Below, piece by piece: positions 8,548-46,430 of a DNA stretch of 64,000 nt. The notes beneath the pieces were generated by a model that was not told the DNA's origin, made no database searches, and was given only the letters and a program-made list of their open reading frames with translations. Origin of the DNA: Escherichia phage A4; sequence record ON286972; one strand, written 5' to 3'. Within the stretch, counting starts at the first letter, position 1, and every line of letters starts with the position of its first letter. A program made the position numbers and the translations under genes.

Positions 8548-8718
8548 ATGAGTCTGAGTGAATCCTGGAAACAGTTCAAAGAAGAGATTGGTTATCGTGG
8601 TGTATCGAGTGAACCAATCAATCGTACTGAAAGCATTAAGGCCAGTACTAACGGTACTACCTATGACCGATATGACCCACGTTACGGGTTACATGAAGAA
8701 GTCAAAAAAGAAGATTGA
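8548..8718 (+). CDS. small hypothetical protein (56 aa)
   Basis: ATG 8548 after AGGGGA RBS; competes with track ORF 8558..8758 in another frame. Confidence 0.35.
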   Translation: MSLSESWKQFKEEIGYRGVSSEPINRTESIKASTNGTTYDRYDPRYGLHEEVKKED

Positions 8719-8781
8719 CAATATATCGAGAGTGTGTGATAATACTCTCGTCTTTTAATTAAACAAAAAGGTAAAATAAAA

Positions 8782-16216: not shown

Positions 16217-16595
<379 letters not shown>

Positions 16596-16596
16596 C

Positions 16597-17611
<1,015 letters not shown>

Positions 17612-18475: not shown

Positions 18476-18482
18476 AAGAACG

Positions 18483-18515
<33 letters not shown>

Positions 18516-18516
18516 C

Positions 18517-18572
<56 letters not shown>

Positions 18573-18573
18573 T

Positions 18574-18780
<207 letters not shown>

Positions 18781-18874
18781 GGTTCAAGAAGAAAACTGGG
18801 GTTTTTAACCTAACGAGGTCAATATGAAAGTAAGTAAAGAAACAGCTAAACAGATTGAAGAACTCTGCACTGCT

Positions 18875-19099: not shown

Positions 19100-19534
<435 letters not shown>

Positions 19535-19542
<8 letters not shown>

Positions 19543-19906
19543 TCTAATAGTACGTATAATGCAAGATGTTCGAAAGAACCTTTATACAGGCAATTTTGAC
19601 GATTCGAACATTAAACTATTATGTTATGATGGTTTTACCTTGGTACATCCATCTGAATCAAATAATATATACATATCATATACTTCCAAAAATCAATTAT
19701 ATCAATTATATCAATTTGATATATATAGCACAATGGCTAAAATAACTTTGGACGTATCCAAGCAGCCTATCCTTATCGCTGTACCAGAATGCAATTACAC
19801 TGAAGAATCACTGTTTCAGTACTCAATGATAAATGACATTGGCGACTTGACATTAGAAGAGATTAACGCTATACTAGATGTATCACGTTTGATTAATGCC
19901 TACTAA
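19535..19906 (+). CDS. FQ-motif paralog family protein
   Basis: ORF track; TEESLFQYSM. Confidence 0.55.
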
Positions 19907-19919
19907 TTTGGAGATTAAT

Positions 19920-20111
19920 ATGTTCTGGAATTTGTTATGTCTTTTTGGTCGTACCTTTGTTCTTGCAATTATCCATACACCAGGTATTCGTAATTTTGTT
20001 TCTTATGAATTTAAGAAAAATTATCACAACAATACTGAAGTTCGTGCCACTAAAATGTGCAAAGACTTCAATGTAACAGTACCACCATTTAAGAAGTACG
20101 AGGATGAATAA
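19920..20111 (+). CDS. small membrane protein (63 aa)
   Basis: Track ORF 19896..20111 trimmed to ATG 19920 after GGAG RBS. Confidence 0.45.
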   Translation: MFWNLLCLFGRTFVLAIIHTPGIRNFVSYEFKKNYHNNTEVRATKMCKDFNVTVPPFKKYEDE

Positions 20112-20389
20112 TGGAATTCATTGTAGCTCCTGAAGAACTCAAGACCTTTAAGTTCAAAGATAATTATACGTATTCAAATCATTCCTTGAATTCAATTCAT
20201 GTAATTGCAATGGTTGCATCTGAATATAAAGATAACCCGTGTATTGATTTTAAAACCACTGATGGTGAATATACATGGGTGATCCCACGAGATAAATATA
20301 GTTATCAAGGGGCAGTAGAAATTCGTGACTCGATTCTAAAACAAATCGAAGATGGACATACTCATCCTAAACTAAACATTCAGTACTGA
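20111..20389 (+). CDS. hypothetical protein (92 aa)
   Basis: ORF track; ATGA overlap. Confidence 0.5.
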   Translation: MEFIVAPEELKTFKFKDNYTYSNHSLNSIHVIAMVASEYKDNPCIDFKTTDGEYTWVIPRDKYSYQGAVEIRDSILKQIEDGHTHPKLNIQY

Positions 20390-20639
20390 AAATGTTATAC
20401 CGATAGCTTCTGGAGCAGTACTGAATCCTCCTTTTTCTTTCAGAAGCTATCACATATTTTGTCGTAAAATGGTACTGTGAGTGGTTTGTCTTTCCATTCT
20501 CTCCAGGTCCAGTACCTATCATTGTAGTTCTGGAGAGATATAACATGTATAATGTTTTTTACCTCCTGTTTATCATTATATATGTCACTAAACGAGTAAT
20601 AACTACCCTCCCTCTAGGTTATTACTTTTGATTTTGGTA

Positions 20640-20668
20640 TTGACTTTCAATGCCGCAAATGTTATACT
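20640..20668 (+). promoter_or_regulatory. sigma70-type promoter
   Basis: TTGACT-N17-TATACT. Confidence 0.5.
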
Positions 20669-20671
20669 TAA

Positions 20672-20700
20672 GGCTGATTCAAATTGAATCGGCCTTTTTT
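20672..20700 (+). terminator. intrinsic terminator-like hairpin between promoter and gene
   Basis: GGCTGATTCAA-AAT-TTGAATCGGCC 10-bp stem then TTTTTTCTTTTT. Confidence 0.45.
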
Positions 20701-20718
20701 CTTTTTAAGGAGAACACC

Positions 20719-21114
20719 ATGAATTTGGTTGTAGAAGACGATATCTTTTCCGATGCTATTGAGTATATGTACAATCTTGTTAGACTTAATGAATTTGTAC
20801 AACGTCATACATTGACACATAAGGATGGGATTATTACTGTTGGTGCATACATTAATGGATACTTAACCGAGTTTTACAATTGTGATAACATTTTTATAAC
20901 CATTGATAACATCACTACGACTAATGACATATCCATTGATTTATTCAAAGATCATATTGAAATTGATATAGACAAGATGATTGCCATCGATATCGATCCT
21001 GTAATGTATGAGTTACAAGAAGAAATGTATGAGCAATTATGCTTTGTGTATGATTTGAGTAAAATTTCATTCTTTGACTTACGCAGAATCTGTTACGTAG
21101 TAGGTAAGTTATGA
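20719..21114 (+). CDS. hypothetical acidic protein (131 aa)
   Basis: Track ORF 20650..21114 trimmed to ATG 20719 after AAGGAG RBS. Confidence 0.5.
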   Translation: MNLVVEDDIFSDAIEYMYNLVRLNEFVQRHTLTHKDGIITVGAYINGYLTEFYNCDNIFITIDNITTTNDISIDLFKDHIEIDIDKMIAIDIDPVMYELQEEMYEQLCFVYDLSKISFFDLRRICYVVGKL

Positions 21115-21584
21115 CAAATATACGTGATGTATTAATGCAGTACGGTATCAGTGCTGAAATGCTTTCAGATGAAATTATTAAAAACTCTAAGATAGAATTT
21201 ATGTTTAATAGACACCGTTATCCAGGTGTTTATATTAATCGATCCTGTTCATTAATTTACTTTGAATACATGGATGAATATGTTATCATTGAAGAAATCA
21301 AACTCAATGGATGGCACTGTACAATTGAGTTAACGAAACCAAGAACCAAGAACAAAATAGTGATTAGTATTAATATCTATTACGATATTAGTACTGAAGA
21401 TGGAGCCTCACACTTTGTTCGAGTTTTGTCATCTGATGATAATTTAAAGTTAGATTATAAATCAGAAGAAGAATACTTTCAGGAAAGTTTAATCAATGAT
21501 TTAGTTTTTGATTATAACTTTTATAAAGAACTATCAAAAAACTTCGTTGAATGTATCAAACTATATGAGGAAGAGGACGAATGA
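21111..21584 (+). CDS. FQ-motif paralog family protein
   Basis: ORF track; SEEEYFQESL. Confidence 0.55.
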   Translation: MTNIRDVLMQYGISAEMLSDEIIKNSKIEFMFNRHRYPGVYINRSCSLIYFEYMDEYVIIEEIKLNGWHCTIELTKPRTKNKIVISINIYYDISTEDGASHFVRVLSSDDNLKLDYKSEEEYFQESLINDLVFDYNFYKELSKNFVECIKLYEEEDE

Positions 21585-22000
21585 AAAATTATAAGTTAAG
21601 TACAGAATACAATGAAATGATCATCAATGCACTTGATAATCATGGTGAGTTTCGTTATCCAGGTGAAGGATTGAACGTTTACTTCGGAGATGAAAACTGG
21701 TGCTATCTGAATAATGGTGTTCTGACTATCCATATTCAGGATATTAAAAGTGATGTATCATTTGGAATTCACCTAGTTCCCGGTACATTGGTTAATGACG
21801 CACGTATCAATGTTATTGTCAATGAGAACGAATTCTTTCATGATGATTTTGAAGATGTTAAAATGGCAGCTAGTAAGTTGTATACTACTGAAGAAGAGTA
21901 CTTTCAGGATAGCACTGTGAAAGATATGCGAATCCCTTATGAGTTGATGGTTTCAGTACAGAAATTTATTGAGGATTTCAGATGCGATTTGATCAAGTAG
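21581..22000 (+). CDS. FQ-motif paralog family protein
   Basis: ORF track; TEEEYFQDST. Confidence 0.55.
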   Translation: MKNYKLSTEYNEMIINALDNHGEFRYPGEGLNVYFGDENWCYLNNGVLTIHIQDIKSDVSFGIHLVPGTLVNDARINVIVNENEFFHDDFEDVKMAASKLYTTEEEYFQDSTVKDMRIPYELMVSVQKFIEDFRCDLIK

Positions 22001-22449
22001 TTAATCGTGAGTACTTGGGTCGTATGGTGGGTGCTGCAATTGACATGATGGTAAAAAAGATGTGCCGTTATCATCCATCACAATGGAATGCTTCATATAG
22101 CATTGAGATATATGCATATAAACTTCATGGGGCTGCAACTTCATTTGAGAAAATTCACTCATTGAGGCTTCACATGTACAGGGGAACCGAACGTACATAC
22201 ACTGTAATTGTGAATTCCGGTGGTGTTACATTACATTTAACACCATTTAATGCTGTTAATTTGGATTTAAGTTCAGTTATTGAGAGCACAGAAATCTGTC
22301 ACATTGAAGTTGGTGCTAATTATCATCCATTAACCGAAGAACAGTACTTCCAGATTCAAACTCTACATGATATCCATGACTTGACATATGAAGAAATTCG
22401 TGATTTAATAAGATTAAGTGCAATGATTCCAAATAAGGGTACAGTGTGA
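21982..22449 (+). CDS. FQ-motif paralog family protein
   Basis: ORF track; TEEQYFQIQT. Confidence 0.55.
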   Translation: MRFDQVVNREYLGRMVGAAIDMMVKKMCRYHPSQWNASYSIEIYAYKLHGAATSFEKIHSLRLHMYRGTERTYTVIVNSGGVTLHLTPFNAVNLDLSSVIESTEICHIEVGANYHPLTEEQYFQIQTLHDIHDLTYEEIRDLIRLSAMIPNKGTV

Positions 22450-22552
22450 ACGACCACATAACTGTCTGATTTGAATGGGTTGACATTTAACCAATGTAAA
22501 AGAATTGTTTCTATATGTAATCGAATTACATATGAGTACACGGAGATATAAA

Positions 22553-22999
22553 ATGGCATTTGGTAACATTGAAGAAGTACAACTAGTATTTGAAAACTGT
22601 GAAGTTCAAAACTTCAAGTTCACTGACATTCTGTACATGTATGTTGGTGATGAATCGCAACGTGCATATCGTTATGCTAATGGTTTGTCAATTGAATCAG
22701 TACTGAAGAAGTTTGCTATTGTCTTTAAGAAAGACACGGAGGCTGATTTTTACAACGGAACTTCATTGGTAGATCGCCTGTCAGAGCGTGATGTTACTCA
22801 TGTTGTGTTCTTCGGTGCAAATGACAAAATGGCATCATATGTCATTGACTGGGGTGAATATGATTCATGTAATATGCAGTACTCAATCAATCAGAGGTTG
22901 CAATTTACACCTGATGGACATATCATCTTCACAAGCAGTACAGAAGATATGATTAAGATTGATGCAGAAGAGATTGATTCTTTTGCGAGGTACATGTAA
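22553..22999 (+). CDS. hypothetical protein (148 aa)
   Basis: Track ORF 22505..22999 trimmed to ATG 22553 after GGAG RBS. Confidence 0.5.
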   Translation: MAFGNIEEVQLVFENCEVQNFKFTDILYMYVGDESQRAYRYANGLSIESVLKKFAIVFKKDTEADFYNGTSLVDRLSERDVTHVVFFGANDKMASYVIDWGEYDSCNMQYSINQRLQFTPDGHIIFTSSTEDMIKIDAEEIDSFARYM

Positions 23000-23463
23000 T
23001 GCGTCCAGTACTGAAAGATATTAAATCCAGGAAATATTTTCCTGGGTTTATGGAGTACATCATTGGGTTAGCTGAATCCAAGACTGGACAGAAAGTTGAT
23101 ATCCAACTCGGTGATGTACTGATTTGTGCAAGATCTTATCGTAATAATTTCATGGACATTTTTGAAAGATCCAATTCGATTCTTGCCTCTCTTGATTTAG
23201 AGGGCTATTTAAATGCTAAATTCGTATTGGATATATACAGTCATGGGTTTTCAATAAGACCTTATAATTCACATTACAATGATGATCCCAAAAACTTCTT
23301 TGTGCATGTAGAAAATGTTGACCAATTCACTGACCTTAGTGATGAAAGTTACTTTCAGATGCAGGTGGCATATGACCTACAGGACTTGACACGTCAAGAA
23401 ATCAATGCTATCCTCTATGTATGTTCTAAATTGAAAGAAAATGAGGTAAGCGGTCGTGTCTAA
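22999..23463 (+). CDS. FQ-motif paralog family protein
   Basis: ORF track; DESYFQMQVA. Confidence 0.55.
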   Translation: MRPVLKDIKSRKYFPGFMEYIIGLAESKTGQKVDIQLGDVLICARSYRNNFMDIFERSNSILASLDLEGYLNAKFVLDIYSHGFSIRPYNSHYNDDPKNFFVHVENVDQFTDLSDESYFQMQVAYDLQDLTRQEINAILYVCSKLKENEVSGRV

Positions 23464-28576: not shown

Positions 28577-29035
28577 ATGACAGTATTAGCTACCCAATTT
28601 AAACGAAATACAGAGCAACGTGAAGGTTACTTGAGTATCAGTGAAGTGGTTGAAGGAAACTTCAAACAGTACATTTTCAATGCTTCTATTAAATTAAAAG
28701 CGACAAAATCTGATAAAGATCGTGGCTTTACTAAGTGGGTGGCTTACTGGGAAGATTCACCTGTTGCAATTGAAATGACAGTAATGACAACAGTACTGGA
28801 AACTGGATACATTAAAGCGACCATTGTAGATAAACAAGTACGAACCATTGATGAGATTGGTCCTTACCCAGCACGAAATTCTAAAGTATTTGGTAACTTG
28901 ATTGATGGTAAGTTTATGTTGGATAAAGATGCACAAGTTTATGTGATGGATAAGGTAGAAAAAGCGGCAGCTAAAAAAGAAGTTGTAAATCAAAGTCAAA
29001 TTGACTTAATCAAACAAGCATGGGGTTTAAAATGA
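28577..29035 (+). CDS. hypothetical protein (152 aa)
   Basis: ORF track; GAGGAA RBS. Confidence 0.5.
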   Translation: MTVLATQFKRNTEQREGYLSISEVVEGNFKQYIFNASIKLKATKSDKDRGFTKWVAYWEDSPVAIEMTVMTTVLETGYIKATIVDKQVRTIDEIGPYPARNSKVFGNLIDGKFMLDKDAQVYVMDKVEKAAAKKEVVNQSQIDLIKQAWGLK

Positions 29036-29475
29036 TTTCTATCAAATCCGTAAAATACATTTATCTTCTTGGTATTTTGTCTTGGTTTGCATTACCAGTA
29101 CTGGACTTCTTTCAAGTCACAGATGATAACAAGTACCAAACAGTAGTTTCAGTGTTTTCACTTTTATTTTTTCTTGGTGTCTTTTTTTCTAGTGCTTTTA
29201 TGATCTTTAGTGATGAAGACGATGCAAGACGTTTCTATGCAGTAGTTTTTGAATTTAAACACTATGGGTGGTATCTAACACTCCCGTTCATTCCATGTAT
29301 CATTTATGCTTTCAACTATGAATACTATTCATATATGGGCATGGCAATGATTTTGTTTATTATCCTTGAACGTATGCGAACGGTTCAAAACAAGTTTGCA
29401 CAGGAGTACGAAGACATGCAAACTGCGGAAGAGATACGTAGGAAGTCAATTCCAACAACAAAGGTAGATTTATAA
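29020..29475 (+). CDS. integral membrane protein (start may be ATG 29032)
   Basis: ORF track; several hydrophobic helices. Confidence 0.5.
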   Translation: MGFKMISIKSVKYIYLLGILSWFALPVLDFFQVTDDNKYQTVVSVFSLLFFLGVFFSSAFMIFSDEDDARRFYAVVFEFKHYGWYLTLPFIPCIIYAFNYEYYSYMGMAMILFIILERMRTVQNKFAQEYEDMQTAEEIRRKSIPTTKVDL

Positions 29476-32906: not shown

Positions 32907-32934
32907 GGGTTGACTTAGGTCAGCCCTTTTTTTA
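32907..32934 (+). terminator. intrinsic terminator (GGGTTGAC-TTAG-GTCAGCCC hairpin)
   Basis: Same hairpin family as the downstream terminator/promoter cassettes, followed by TTTTTTT, no good -10. Confidence 0.6.
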
Positions 32935-34812: not shown

Positions 34813-34840
34813 TTGACATAAGATATCAGTACTGTATAAT
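34813..34840 (+). promoter_or_regulatory. sigma70-type promoter
   Basis: TTGACA-N16-TATAAT with cagtactg spacer. Confidence 0.55.
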
Positions 34841-46402: not shown

Positions 46403-46430
46403 TTGACAAACTCAACTAGTACTGTATAAT
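46403..46430 (+). promoter_or_regulatory. sigma70-type promoter
   Basis: TTGACA-N16-TATAAT with tagtactg spacer. Confidence 0.55.

What the first reader, a model, noticed from the sequence alone, without database searches (positions are those of the whole stretch)
20390..20718. Hairpin-rich 330-bp intergenic region ending in a promoter followed by a terminator-like stem
The region contains an 11-bp stem (GATAGCTTCTG...CAGAAGCTATC, 20403-20451), a 9-bp stem (TCTCTCCAG...CTGGAGAGA, about 20505-20545), a 9-bp stem (AGTAATAAC...GTTATTACT, about 20597-20628), then promoter 20640-20668 and a 10-bp hairpin with T-run (20672-20700) abutting the RBS of gene 20719. It may be a regulatory leader, a replication or packaging-related cis element, or a small RNA gene.
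Basis: seen in the sequence. Interest (0 to 1): 0.4.

Follow-up and report, generated by a model that had tools for sequence, protein, structure and literature searches.

The report
Phage operon boundary: hairpins, promoter, terminator
This 330-base non-coding gap in a jumbo coliphage is most likely an ordinary but neatly built boundary between two early operons: a row of RNA hairpins, a conserved promoter, and a strong terminator that the promoter's own transcripts probably escape because they start inside its stem.

Summary
Window 20390-20718 is a non-coding gap between two + strand genes of a phage related to the Asteriusvirus jumbo coliphages (121Q/PBECO4; about 87% nt identity upstream). 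It holds six hairpins, not four. It has 4 perfect inverted repeats of at least 9 bp against 0.05 expected, and an RNA fold z-score of -6.9.

Relatives keep the same layout. Hairpin B has a compensatory G-C/A-U pair and G.U-preserving changes. Hairpins C, D and E keep their positions. The TTGACN-17/18-TGtTATACT promoter is conserved. Terminator hairpin T has an invariant stem and a variable loop. Hairpin H2 exists only in this phage. Phage ph0011 lacks B and C, so they are dispensable.

The predicted transcription start (20675-20677) lies inside T's 5' arm. Read-through RNA would therefore form T (-16 kcal/mol, U-tract) and stop. Promoter-initiated RNA keeps only a -4.7 kcal/mol stub and continues.

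Sequence similarity between phage lineages collapses right after T, so the cassette marks a mosaic junction, as PeSL cassettes do in T4-like phages. No Rfam family, conserved ORF, origin or packaging signal was found.

Verdict: an ordinary regulatory intergenic region with one unusual feature, the promoter sitting upstream of the terminator. Interest is low to moderate. A side observation is more striking: the palindrome CAGTACTG is about 58-fold enriched across the window.

The parts
20111..20389 (+). Upstream gene (92 aa, PHROG 30132, function unknown). It is the homolog of 121Q gp144 and the last gene of the upstream early transcription unit.
   Evidence: about 85% aa identity to all Asteriusvirus homologs
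20378..20391 (.). First copy of the genome-wide palindrome (ATTCAGTACTGAA; core CAGTACTG at 20381-20388). It overlaps the stop codon. It is complementary to the second copy at 20416-20426, in pseudoknot topology with hairpin B.
20402..20451 (+). Hairpin B: 11 perfect pairs (14 with G.U), about -17 kcal/mol. Its large loop carries CAGTACTG (20416-20423) and UCCUCCUU. A weak U-run follows 5 nt downstream.
   Evidence: Conserved in all relatives except ph0011, with a compensatory A-U/G-C pair and two G.U-preserving changes.
20498..20538 (+). Hairpin H2: 9 perfect pairs, -15 kcal/mol. It lies inside a stretch of about 90 nt (roughly 20456-20545) that no relative has.
   Evidence: No match in the phage, E. 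coli, IMG/VR or metagenome collections.
20543..20585 (+). Hairpin C: 12 pairs including one G.U. Its arms are inverted copies of TATAATG and its loop holds ACCUCC.
   Evidence: The equivalent TATAATGA/TCATTATA hairpin occurs in the 121Q and WPEC3 types, with a U.G-preserving change in the Logan variants.
20594..20636 (+). Hairpin D: 9 perfect pairs plus 2 G.U, -9 kcal/mol, loop ACCCUCCCUCUA. The tract UUUUGAUUUU follows. It is a weak intrinsic terminator just upstream of the promoter, the PeSL-like stem-loop.
   Evidence: All relatives, including ph0011, have a hairpin plus U-run at this position, but with a different stem sequence.
20636..20654 (+). Hairpin E: 8 pairs (GGUAUUGA/UCAAUGCC) enclosing the -35 hexamer.
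   Evidence: Relatives have AGAAGTT..AACTTCT around their -35 element.
20640..20668 (+). Sigma-70-type promoter P: TTGACT, 17-nt spacer, TG-extended TATACT.
   Evidence: The hexamers are conserved while the spacer sequence varies across lineages.
20675..20677 (+). Predicted transcription start of P (7-9 nt after the -10 element; G20676 fits the pyrimidine-purine rule). It lies inside the 5' arm of hairpin T. This is inferred, not measured.
   Evidence: and established sigma-70 spacing rules
20670..20706 (+). Intrinsic terminator T: 12-bp stem at 20670-20681 / 20685-20696 (5 G-C pairs, one U.G), loop AAT, U-tract at 20697-20706. Stability is -16 kcal/mol.
   Evidence: The stem is invariant in 10 relatives while the loop varies in length and sequence; ph0011 converts the U.G pair to U-A. 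Annotated as a terminator in G17 and UE-S1.
20707..20721 (+). Shine-Dalgarno AAGGAG (20707-20712) and the ATG (20719) of the downstream gene 20719..21114 (131 aa, PHROG 35192). This is the first gene of a tandem paralog array.

Best explanation
The region is the boundary between two early, host-RNA-polymerase transcription units of an Asteriusvirus-like jumbo phage.

RNA reading out of the upstream unit (genes 19896..20389) passes through an untranslated, hairpin-packed 3' region: B, H2, C, D, E. B and D carry short U-runs and probably act as weak terminators or 3'-end protectors.

The conserved sigma-70 promoter P (20640-20668) restarts transcription for the downstream paralog array.

The strong intrinsic terminator T (20670-20706) begins 2 nt after the -10 hexamer, so the predicted start site (about 20676) falls inside T's 5' arm. 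Transcripts arriving from upstream contain the whole stem next to the U-tract and should terminate. Transcripts started at P lack the G+C-rich base of the stem and should read through into gene 20719. T would therefore insulate the downstream unit without taxing its own promoter.

Shown here: the hairpins, their non-random density, their conservation and pair-preserving substitutions on the + strand, the conservation of the promoter hexamers, the non-coding nature of the gap, and the similarity break directly after T.

Inferred: the start site, termination at T, and read-through of P-initiated transcripts.
For: Hairpin density and fold.
- 4 perfect inverted repeats of at least 9 bp against 0.054 expected.
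- Fold z = -6.9 on the + strand. The equivalent regions of the relatives give z = -7.2, -6.1, -6.2 and -3.5.

Stems in relatives.
- On the 10-sequence alignment A3, 95% of stem cells pair, against 32-50% when the partners are slid.
- One pair is compensatory (A-U to G-C in hairpin B). The window carries the same G-C pair.
- Five internal one-sided changes all give G.U on the + strand, against one internal disruptive change. My own binomial estimate for this is P about 0.02.
- T's stem is invariant while its loop varies from 3 to 6 nt. That fits an RNA hairpin and not a fixed-spacing protein site.

Promoter and terminator.
- P scores 10 of 12 plus the TG motif. TTG.../TATACT is kept in six lineages while the spacer differs.
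- T is the only strong + strand terminator between 14559 and 25599.
- T's stability falls from -16.2 to -4.7 kcal/mol or weaker when the RNA starts at 20675-20677. The remaining stub is separated from the U-tract by GGCC.

Non-coding status.
- ORFs inside the gap score like spurious antisense ORFs on codon usage: -0.04 against 0.19-0.36 for real small genes.
- They match no PHROG or Pfam family.
- Their reading frames are not conserved in relatives.

Mosaic junction.
- 121Q against WPEC3: upstream gene 91%, intergenic region 91%, promoter-terminator block 89%, downstream gene 65% nt identity.
- The downstream proteins are only 39-44% identical.

Genome context.
- The same genome holds other composite terminator/promoter cassettes.
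Against: - No transcript ends were measured. The start site comes from spacing rules only.
- Covariation is statistically weak because the relatives are 92% identical: 51 of 500 shuffles reach the observed score.
- Hairpins D and E of the window cannot be aligned with those of relatives. 'Conserved in position' could therefore mean independent origin.
- The + strand fold is no better than the - strand fold in UE-S1 and is worse in ph0011.
- ph0011 lacks B and C, so those hairpins are not essential.
- Placing a promoter upstream of the terminator, not downstream, is atypical. It is the only such case in this window.
- Hairpin E, the CCUC-rich loops and the CAGTACTG copies are not explained by this model.
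Confidence: 0.6

Rival explanations
1. The hairpin array B to D is a functional structured non-coding RNA on the + strand. It could be a 3'UTR-derived RNA, or a small RNA of about 75 nt started at the -10-like TATAAT (20548-20553) and ended at hairpin D. Its loops present 16S-like anti-Shine-Dalgarno sequences (CCUCC) that could pair with ribosome-binding sites.
For: - The stems keep pairing on the + strand through G.U changes.
- CCTCC occurs 3 times in the region. Only 21 copies occur in the whole 64 kb, so about 0.1 would be expected here.
- Relatives keep CCUC motifs in the loops.
- The TATAAT/TACAAT box is conserved in most lineages.
- A related jumbo phage, PA5oct, has abundant ORF-free transcripts of 236-619 nt (PMC7318152).
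Against: - No acceptable -35 element or extended -10 accompanies that TATAAT.
- The box is also simply one arm of hairpin C.
- There is no Rfam match.
- ph0011 has deleted B and C and is still a viable phage.
- UE-S1 lacks the CCUC motif in its D loop.
- Terminator-bearing intergenic regions here are pyrimidine-rich in general.
Confidence: 0.15
2. T acts on transcripts from its own promoter as a promoter-proximal attenuator. Most P transcripts would stop at about +30 until a phage or host antiterminator allows read-through, giving delayed-early control comparable to lambda PR'-tR'.
For: - The promoter-then-terminator order and its exact spacing are conserved in all lineages.
- T is a canonical intrinsic terminator.
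Against: - The complete stem would be transcribed only if initiation occurred 2 nt or less after the -10 hexamer. Sigma-70 normally starts 6-9 nt after it. With a start at 20675-20677 the stem is lost.
- There is no room for an alternative antiterminator structure, and no leader family matches.
Confidence: 0.1
3. The region is read on the - strand. It would hold a small gene (59 aa, 20546..20367, behind AGGAGG) or an antisense RNA convergent on the upstream gene, started from TTATTA-16-TATAAT (20602 to 20575).
For: - A perfect TATAAT is present on the - strand and conserved in relatives.
- GGAGG-like motifs occur on the - strand, and the - strand is purine-rich like a sense strand.
- SD-1_S14 annotates a - strand CDS here.
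Against: - The ORF's codon usage is typical of spurious antisense ORFs.
- It matches no family.
- Its SD-to-ATG spacing is 15 nt.
- Indels break the reading frame in relatives.
- The -35 element is poor and not conserved.
- All five G.U pairs from one-sided changes in stems would become A.C mismatches on the - strand.
- No - strand terminator is present.
Confidence: 0.05
4. The inverted repeats work at the DNA level. They could be an origin, a packaging site or a recombination site, or binding sites for a phage protein that recognises the palindrome CAGTACTG. Two copies of that palindrome flank the 5' arm of hairpin B.
For: - CAGTACTG is about 58-fold enriched in this window and about 64-fold in 121Q. 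It also sits in the spacers of several strong promoters.
- The region is a mosaic junction.
Against: - There are no iterons or tandem repeats and no GC-skew extremum.
- Loop lengths vary between lineages.
- Substitutions preserve G.U pairs, which are meaningless in duplex DNA.
- The first palindrome copy is mutated in one lineage, ENA1.
- The motif is everywhere in the genome, so two copies here carry little specific information.
Confidence: 0.07

Closest known systems
PeSL (promoter-early stem-loop) composite terminator/promoter cassettes of T4-like phages (Arbiol et al. 2010; Comeau, Arbiol and Krisch 2014, PMC4122927)
   Same: - A sigma-70-like early promoter has a stem-loop just upstream (hairpin D plus U-run) and an SD plus start codon at its 3' end.
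- It lies in a region of small, variable early genes.
- It sits exactly where close relatives differ by insertion, deletion and gene replacement.
   Different: - This cassette is single-copy in the genome, whereas PeSLs form a dispersed family of near-identical repeats.
- It carries a second, much stronger terminator downstream of the promoter, overlapping the start site.
- Four further hairpins precede it.
- The phage is an Asteriusvirus relative, not a member of the T4-like subfamily.
- No recombination activity was tested.
Canonical Rho-independent (intrinsic) terminators of E. coli and its phages
   Same: Hairpin T has a 12-bp stem with a G+C-rich base, a 3-nt loop, and a U-tract of 6 U immediately 3'. 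ARNold-based annotation of G17 calls the same element a terminator.
   Different: It lies downstream of, and overlaps, the start region of a promoter. Only read-through RNA should contain the full stem.
Lambda PR'-tR' (6S RNA): a promoter-proximal terminator under antitermination control
   Same: A strong promoter is followed by an intrinsic terminator ahead of the genes it serves.
   Different: The lambda terminator lies 194 nt downstream and is fully transcribed. Here the terminator starts 2 nt after the -10 hexamer, so the promoter's own RNA should lack its 5' arm.
RNase III processing hairpins between T7 early genes
   Same: Large conserved hairpins sit between early genes of a phage that uses the host RNA polymerase. 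The record for 121Q annotates a protein kinase (gp205) as positively regulating RNase III.
   Different: B, H2 and C have 9-14 bp stems with large loops. T7 sites are about 20 bp of duplex with an internal loop. Cleavage could not be tested.
ORF-free abundant transcripts (ncRNA001-004) of the related jumbo phage PA5oct (PMC7318152)
   Same: These are ORF-free stretches of a few hundred nt in a phage described as related to 121Q/PBECO4.
   Different: No sequence similarity was tested, and expression of the present region is unknown.

Membership tests
PeSL composite terminator/promoter cassette | Sigma-70-like early promoter (-35 and -10 hexamers about 17 nt apart) | tested here: met
   TTGACT-17-TATACT with a TG extension. 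The hexamers are conserved and the spacer varies in relatives.
PeSL composite terminator/promoter cassette | Stem-loop located just upstream of the promoter | tested here: met
   Hairpin D (20594-20627) plus a U-run ends 4 nt before the -35 hexamer. A hairpin occupies this position in all relatives.
PeSL composite terminator/promoter cassette | Shine-Dalgarno sequence and start codon at the 3' end of the element | tested here: met
   AAGGAG at 20707-20712 and ATG at 20719
PeSL composite terminator/promoter cassette | Many well-conserved copies dispersed through the variable regions of one genome | tested here: not met
   The region has no second copy in the window and occurs at one place per phage record. 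A different cassette, aaaGGGTTGACTTCGGTCAGCCCTTTTTTGCTATAAT, is repeated 8 times in the window and 4 times in 50 kb of 121Q.
PeSL composite terminator/promoter cassette | Lies next to insertions, deletions or gene replacements between closely related phages | tested here: met
   There is an extra stretch of about 90 nt in the window and a deletion of about 75 nt in ph0011. Similarity drops from about 90% to about 65% nt directly after the U-tract. The downstream proteins are 39-44% identical.
PeSL composite terminator/promoter cassette | Recombination or mini-circle formation between cassettes | not testable with these tools
   Needs PCR or sequencing of infected-cell DNA
Intrinsic (Rho-independent) terminator | G+C-rich stem of 5-14 bp with a short loop, directly followed by a U-tract | tested here: met
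   T has 12 pairs (5 G-C), a 3-nt loop, and UUUUCUUUUU directly 3' of a stem whose last two bases are also U. Stability is -16 kcal/mol. B and D meet this only weakly: B has a large loop and a distant U-run, and D has an A+U-rich stem.
Intrinsic (Rho-independent) terminator | Transcripts end in the U-tract | not testable with these tools
   Needs Term-seq or in vitro transcription
Promoter-proximal attenuator, leader or riboswitch | The full terminator hairpin is present in RNA started at the promoter | tested here: inconclusive
   The predicted start at 20675-20677 removes 5-7 nt of the 5' arm, and stability falls from -16.2 to -4.7 kcal/mol or weaker. The start is predicted, not measured.
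Promoter-proximal attenuator, leader or riboswitch | An alternative antiterminator structure, leader peptide or ligand-binding domain | tested here: not met
   Only about 43 nt lie between the predicted start and the ATG. No Rfam family scores below E = 0.4.
Described RNA families (Rfam 15) | Match at the gathering threshold | tested here: not met
   Only the six tRNAs elsewhere in the window reach threshold. The best hit in the region scores 21 bits against a gathering score of 57.
Replication origin or packaging site | Iterons or direct repeats, a strand-skew turning point, an A+T-rich unwinding element | tested here: not met
   Only short chance-level direct repeats are present. GC skew stays positive from 1 to about 55 kb with no extremum here. 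G+C is 35%, equal to the genome average.
Protein-coding small gene (such as the annotated 121Q gp145 or the SD-1_S14 minus-strand CDS) | Conserved reading frame, gene-like codon usage, family membership | tested here: not met
   Frames differ between lineages. The codon log-likelihood is -0.04 to -0.05 per codon, against 0.19-0.36 for real small genes. There is no PHROG or Pfam hit.

The most novel reading that the evidence does not exclude
The hairpin array may be more than terminator padding. It could be a conserved + strand RNA, or RNA/DNA platform, whose loops expose 16S-like anti-Shine-Dalgarno sequences (CCUCC) and the palindrome CAGTACTG. That palindrome is about 58-fold enriched across the genome and also occupies the spacers of early promoters. 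On this reading the locus would belong to an undescribed genome-wide regulatory code of Asteriusvirus-like jumbo phages, for example a factor that recognises CAGTACTG to shut off or process early transcripts.
Probability: 0.1. Interest if true: 0.6.

Novelty: new variant of a known kind. Interest (0 to 1): 0.3.

Why it matters
- It gives a first, testable map of an early transcription-unit boundary in the Asteriusvirus group of 350-kb coliphages. The genome papers I could search contain no analysis of their regulatory sequences.
- It proposes a compact design in which a terminator insulates a gene array without acting on that array's own promoter.
- The conserved promoter-terminator block coincides with the point where lineages have swapped divergent alleles of the downstream gene. 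The same role is proposed for PeSL cassettes in T4-like phages.
- It indicates that the small CDSs annotated inside this gap in some records (121Q gp145, G17_00168, a minus-strand CDS in SD-1_S14) are probably false gene calls.

Tried and rejected
- H2 as a tandem duplicate of the hairpin-B unit: the local alignment score of 22 equals the shuffle mean of 21.4. Rejected.
- Protein-coding ORFs inside the gap (59 aa on the - strand, 28 aa and 15 aa on the + strand, and the relatives' annotated CDSs): rejected on codon usage, lack of family hits and non-conserved frames.
- Rfam at gathering and at permissive thresholds: nothing.
- More relatives for covariation:
  - IMG/VR returned only 121Q itself.
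  - The metagenome scan returned one PBECO4-type contig plus 12 chance hits.
  - The GTDB genome scan returned only chance inverted repeats.
  - E. coli complete genomes gave no match.
  - A protein search for the upstream gene found two 90%-identity clusters, which added three new sequence variants of the intergenic region.
- A distant homolog of the upstream gene in Erwinia Alexandravirus phages has an unrelated downstream region.
- Origin of replication: the GC skew is flat.
- Pyrimidine richness of the + strand as a sign of a - strand gene: the region is the most pyrimidine-rich 250-nt window in the first 55 kb. But another terminator-bearing gap (730-877) and a + strand gene (29020..29475) score similarly, so this is not diagnostic.
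- Literature: no transcript mapping or regulatory-motif analysis was found for this genus. Nothing was found on the CAGTACTG motif.

Full report
**What the window is.** The window matches only Asteriusvirus jumbo coliphages (121Q, PBECO4, G17, phAPEC6 and others). Identity is about 87% nt across 19905-20474. The upstream protein is about 85% identical to its homologs. No closer relative was found in GenBank phages, IMG/VR, JGI metagenomes, GTDB genomes, E. coli genomes or the large protein collection. The finding lies in a + strand region of tRNA genes and small genes of unknown function. This region is syntenic with 121Q genes 119-151. In related phages such regions are considered early, sigma-70-driven regions (PMC5259590).

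**Checking the observation.**
- a 12-bp hairpin, C, at 20543-20585;
- an 8-bp hairpin, E, at 20636-20654, which encloses the -35 hexamer;
- an 11-bp inverted repeat (20378-20388 / 20416-20426) interleaved with the first stem.

The density is not chance. There are four perfect inverted repeats of at least 9 bp against 0.054 expected, and none of 2000 shuffles reached four. The RNA fold z-score is -6.9 on the + strand and -4.8 on the - strand. The region ranks third of 386 GC-corrected 330-nt windows in this sequence.

**The region is non-coding.**
- The flanking genes belong to PHROG families; ORFs inside the gap do not.
- The 59-aa - strand ORF and the 28-aa + strand ORF score -0.04 and -0.05 per codon on a codon-usage log-likelihood. 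Spurious antisense ORFs score -0.07 +/- 0.08. Real small genes nearby score 0.19-0.36.
- The small CDSs annotated here in 121Q, G17 and SD-1_S14 are not frame-conserved between lineages.

**Comparison with relatives.** Thirteen further loci were examined. They give ten distinct sequences of the 121Q/WPEC3/UE-S1/Logan/ENA types, plus the shorter ph0011.
- All full-length types fold into the same series B-C-D-E-T, with z between -6.1 and -7.2.
- ph0011 has lost B and C through a deletion of about 75 nt. It keeps D, E, the promoter and T.
- Hairpin H2 and the roughly 90 nt around it exist only in the window.

On alignment A3, 95% of stem cells form standard pairs, against 32-50% when the 3' partners are slid.
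- One pair in B is compensatory (A-U to G-C in the Logan variants). The window has the same G-C pair.
- Five internal one-sided changes all produce G.U on the + strand. Only one internal change disrupts a pair.
- If roughly a third of random substitutions would preserve pairing, five or more of six has P of about 0.02. This is my own calculation. On the - strand all five would be mismatches.
- Formal covariation is weak, because the sequences are 92% identical (51 of 500 shuffles reach the observed score).
- Hairpins D and E of the window share position but not sequence with their counterparts.
- The + strand folds more stably than the - strand in four of six lineages.

**Promoter and terminator.**
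- The promoter is TTGACT-17-TGtTATACT. Relatives keep TTG(A/C)(C/A/T)(A/T) and an invariant TGTTATACT, with 17-18 nt spacers of different sequence. That pattern indicates selection on the hexamers.
- T starts 2 nt after the -10 hexamer. It has 12 pairs, a 3-nt loop and a U-tract.
- T's stem is invariant in ten relatives, while the loop varies from 3 to 6 nt. ph0011 turns the single U.G pair into U-A.
- Loop-length variation argues for an RNA hairpin and against a fixed-spacing protein operator.
- T is the only strong + strand terminator between 14559 and 25599.
- G17 and UE-S1 annotate it as a terminator.

**Proposed mechanism.** Sigma-70 promoters normally start 6-9 nt after the -10 hexamer. 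Here that gives 20675-20677, inside T's 5' arm. RNA starting there keeps at most a 6-7 bp A+U-rich stub (-4.7 kcal/mol or weaker). That stub is separated from the U-tract by GGCC. The full hairpin is -16.2 kcal/mol. Read-through RNA from upstream should therefore terminate at T, while the promoter's own RNA should not. The start site and the termination are inferred, not shown.

**Evolutionary context.** Similarity between lineages breaks right after T's U-tract.
- 121Q against WPEC3: 91% (upstream gene), 91% (intergenic region), 89% (promoter-terminator block), then 65% (downstream gene).
- The downstream proteins are homologous but only 39-44% identical.
- ph0011 combines a WPEC3-type downstream gene with a different intergenic region.

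This is the behaviour described for PeSL cassettes in T4-like phages: a stem-loop just upstream of an early promoter, followed by SD and ATG, sitting at indels and gene replacements (PMC4122927). The 3' part of the region (D, promoter, SD, ATG) has that anatomy. But the block is single-copy, it carries the extra downstream terminator T, and the host phage is not a T4-like phage. I therefore call it PeSL-like and not a member of that family.

The genome does carry a dispersed cassette of its own. In aaaGGGTTGACTTCGGTCAGCCCTTTTTTGCTATAAT a terminator hairpin encloses the -35 hexamer. It occurs 8 times in the window and 4 times in 50 kb of 121Q. Another terminator overlaps a promoter at 8715-8750. 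Overlapping terminators and promoters are thus a habit of this phage group. Only the order found here (promoter first) is unusual.

**What remains unexplained.**
- B's loop conserves CAGTACTG followed by UCCUCCUU.
- CCTCC occurs three times in the region and 21 times in the whole window.
- The + strand here is the most pyrimidine-rich 250-nt stretch in the first 55 kb. Other terminator-bearing gaps are similar, however.
- CAGTACTG is a genome-wide signal. It occurs 37 times against 0.85 expected by dinucleotide shuffling, or 0.64 from base composition. AGTACT occurs 173 times against 22 expected. The motif is equally enriched in 121Q, occurs in all three reading frames and in non-coding DNA, and sits in the spacers of several strong promoters.

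These points keep a structured-RNA or protein-binding reading alive at low probability.

**Verdict.** The most likely reading (0.6) is a conserved multi-hairpin transcription-unit boundary with a self-insulating promoter/terminator pair at a mosaic junction. The rivals are a small or 3'UTR-derived RNA (0.15), an attenuator (0.1), a DNA-level element (0.07) and - strand expression (0.05). I class it as a new variant of a known kind, of low to moderate interest.

Noticed in passing
whole window; for example 16567, 16976, 17500, 18502, 18623, 20381, 20416, 34827; also L026 (121Q 55000-104999): The palindrome CAGTACTG occurs 37 times against 0.85 expected. AGTACT occurs 173 times against 22, while many other 6-bp palindromes are absent. 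The same enrichment is seen in 121Q (29 against 0.45). The motif occurs in all three reading frames and is over-represented in non-coding DNA. I found no literature on it.
   Followed up: partly
16553-16580, 16962-16989, 17486-17514, 34813-34840 (approx.), 46403-46430: A class of near-consensus promoters has CAGTACTG (or AGTACTG) filling the spacer directly before the -10 element (TTGACT-aaatagtt-CAGTACTG-TATAAT-GTTT). Several lie just upstream of tRNA genes. This suggests an operator-like role for the palindrome.
   Followed up: partly
32910, 40806, 41163, 42531, 45454, 47920, 48649, 50641; L026 43699, 46940, 47123, 49785: A dispersed composite cassette, aaaGGGTTGACTTCGGTCAGCCCTTTTTTGCTATAAT, is repeated. 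A terminator hairpin encloses the -35 hexamer, its U-tract forms the promoter spacer, and a -10 element follows. It looks like a true PeSL-like repeat family in this phage group. The copy at 32910 lacks the -10 element.
   Followed up: partly
8715-8750: Another terminator/promoter overlap: the hairpin CGAGAGT..ACTCTCG plus a U-run spans the spacer and -10 element of a TTGACA-17-GATAAT promoter.
   Followed up: no
19105-23463: A tandem array of 120-155 aa paralogs shares a C-terminal motif (EE.YFQ....D...L..EEI). The array is interrupted by the two unrelated genes and the gap studied here. The first gene after the gap is the one that differs most between phage lineages.
   Followed up: partly
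18476-18823: A second long ORF-poor gap holds two copies of the extended palindrome ATTCAGTACTGAAT, 121 nt apart, upstream of a TTGACA-17-TATTAT promoter. It is only weakly structured (z = -2.1).
   Followed up: partly
L047 1201-1240, L048: In one metagenomic lineage the upstream gene's stop codon is mutated (CAGTACTGA to CAGTACTCA). The ORF then runs 6 codons further and ends at a TAG inside the 5' arm of hairpin B.
   Followed up: no
about 55000: GC skew changes sign near 55 kb, presumably where gene orientation switches. CAGTACTG almost disappears beyond that point, with one copy in the last 9 kb.
   Followed up: no
whole window: The source phage is not in any collection searched. The nearest relatives are at about 87% nt and 85% aa identity in conserved genes, so it appears to be an undescribed lineage beside the known Asteriusvirus species.
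   Followed up: partly
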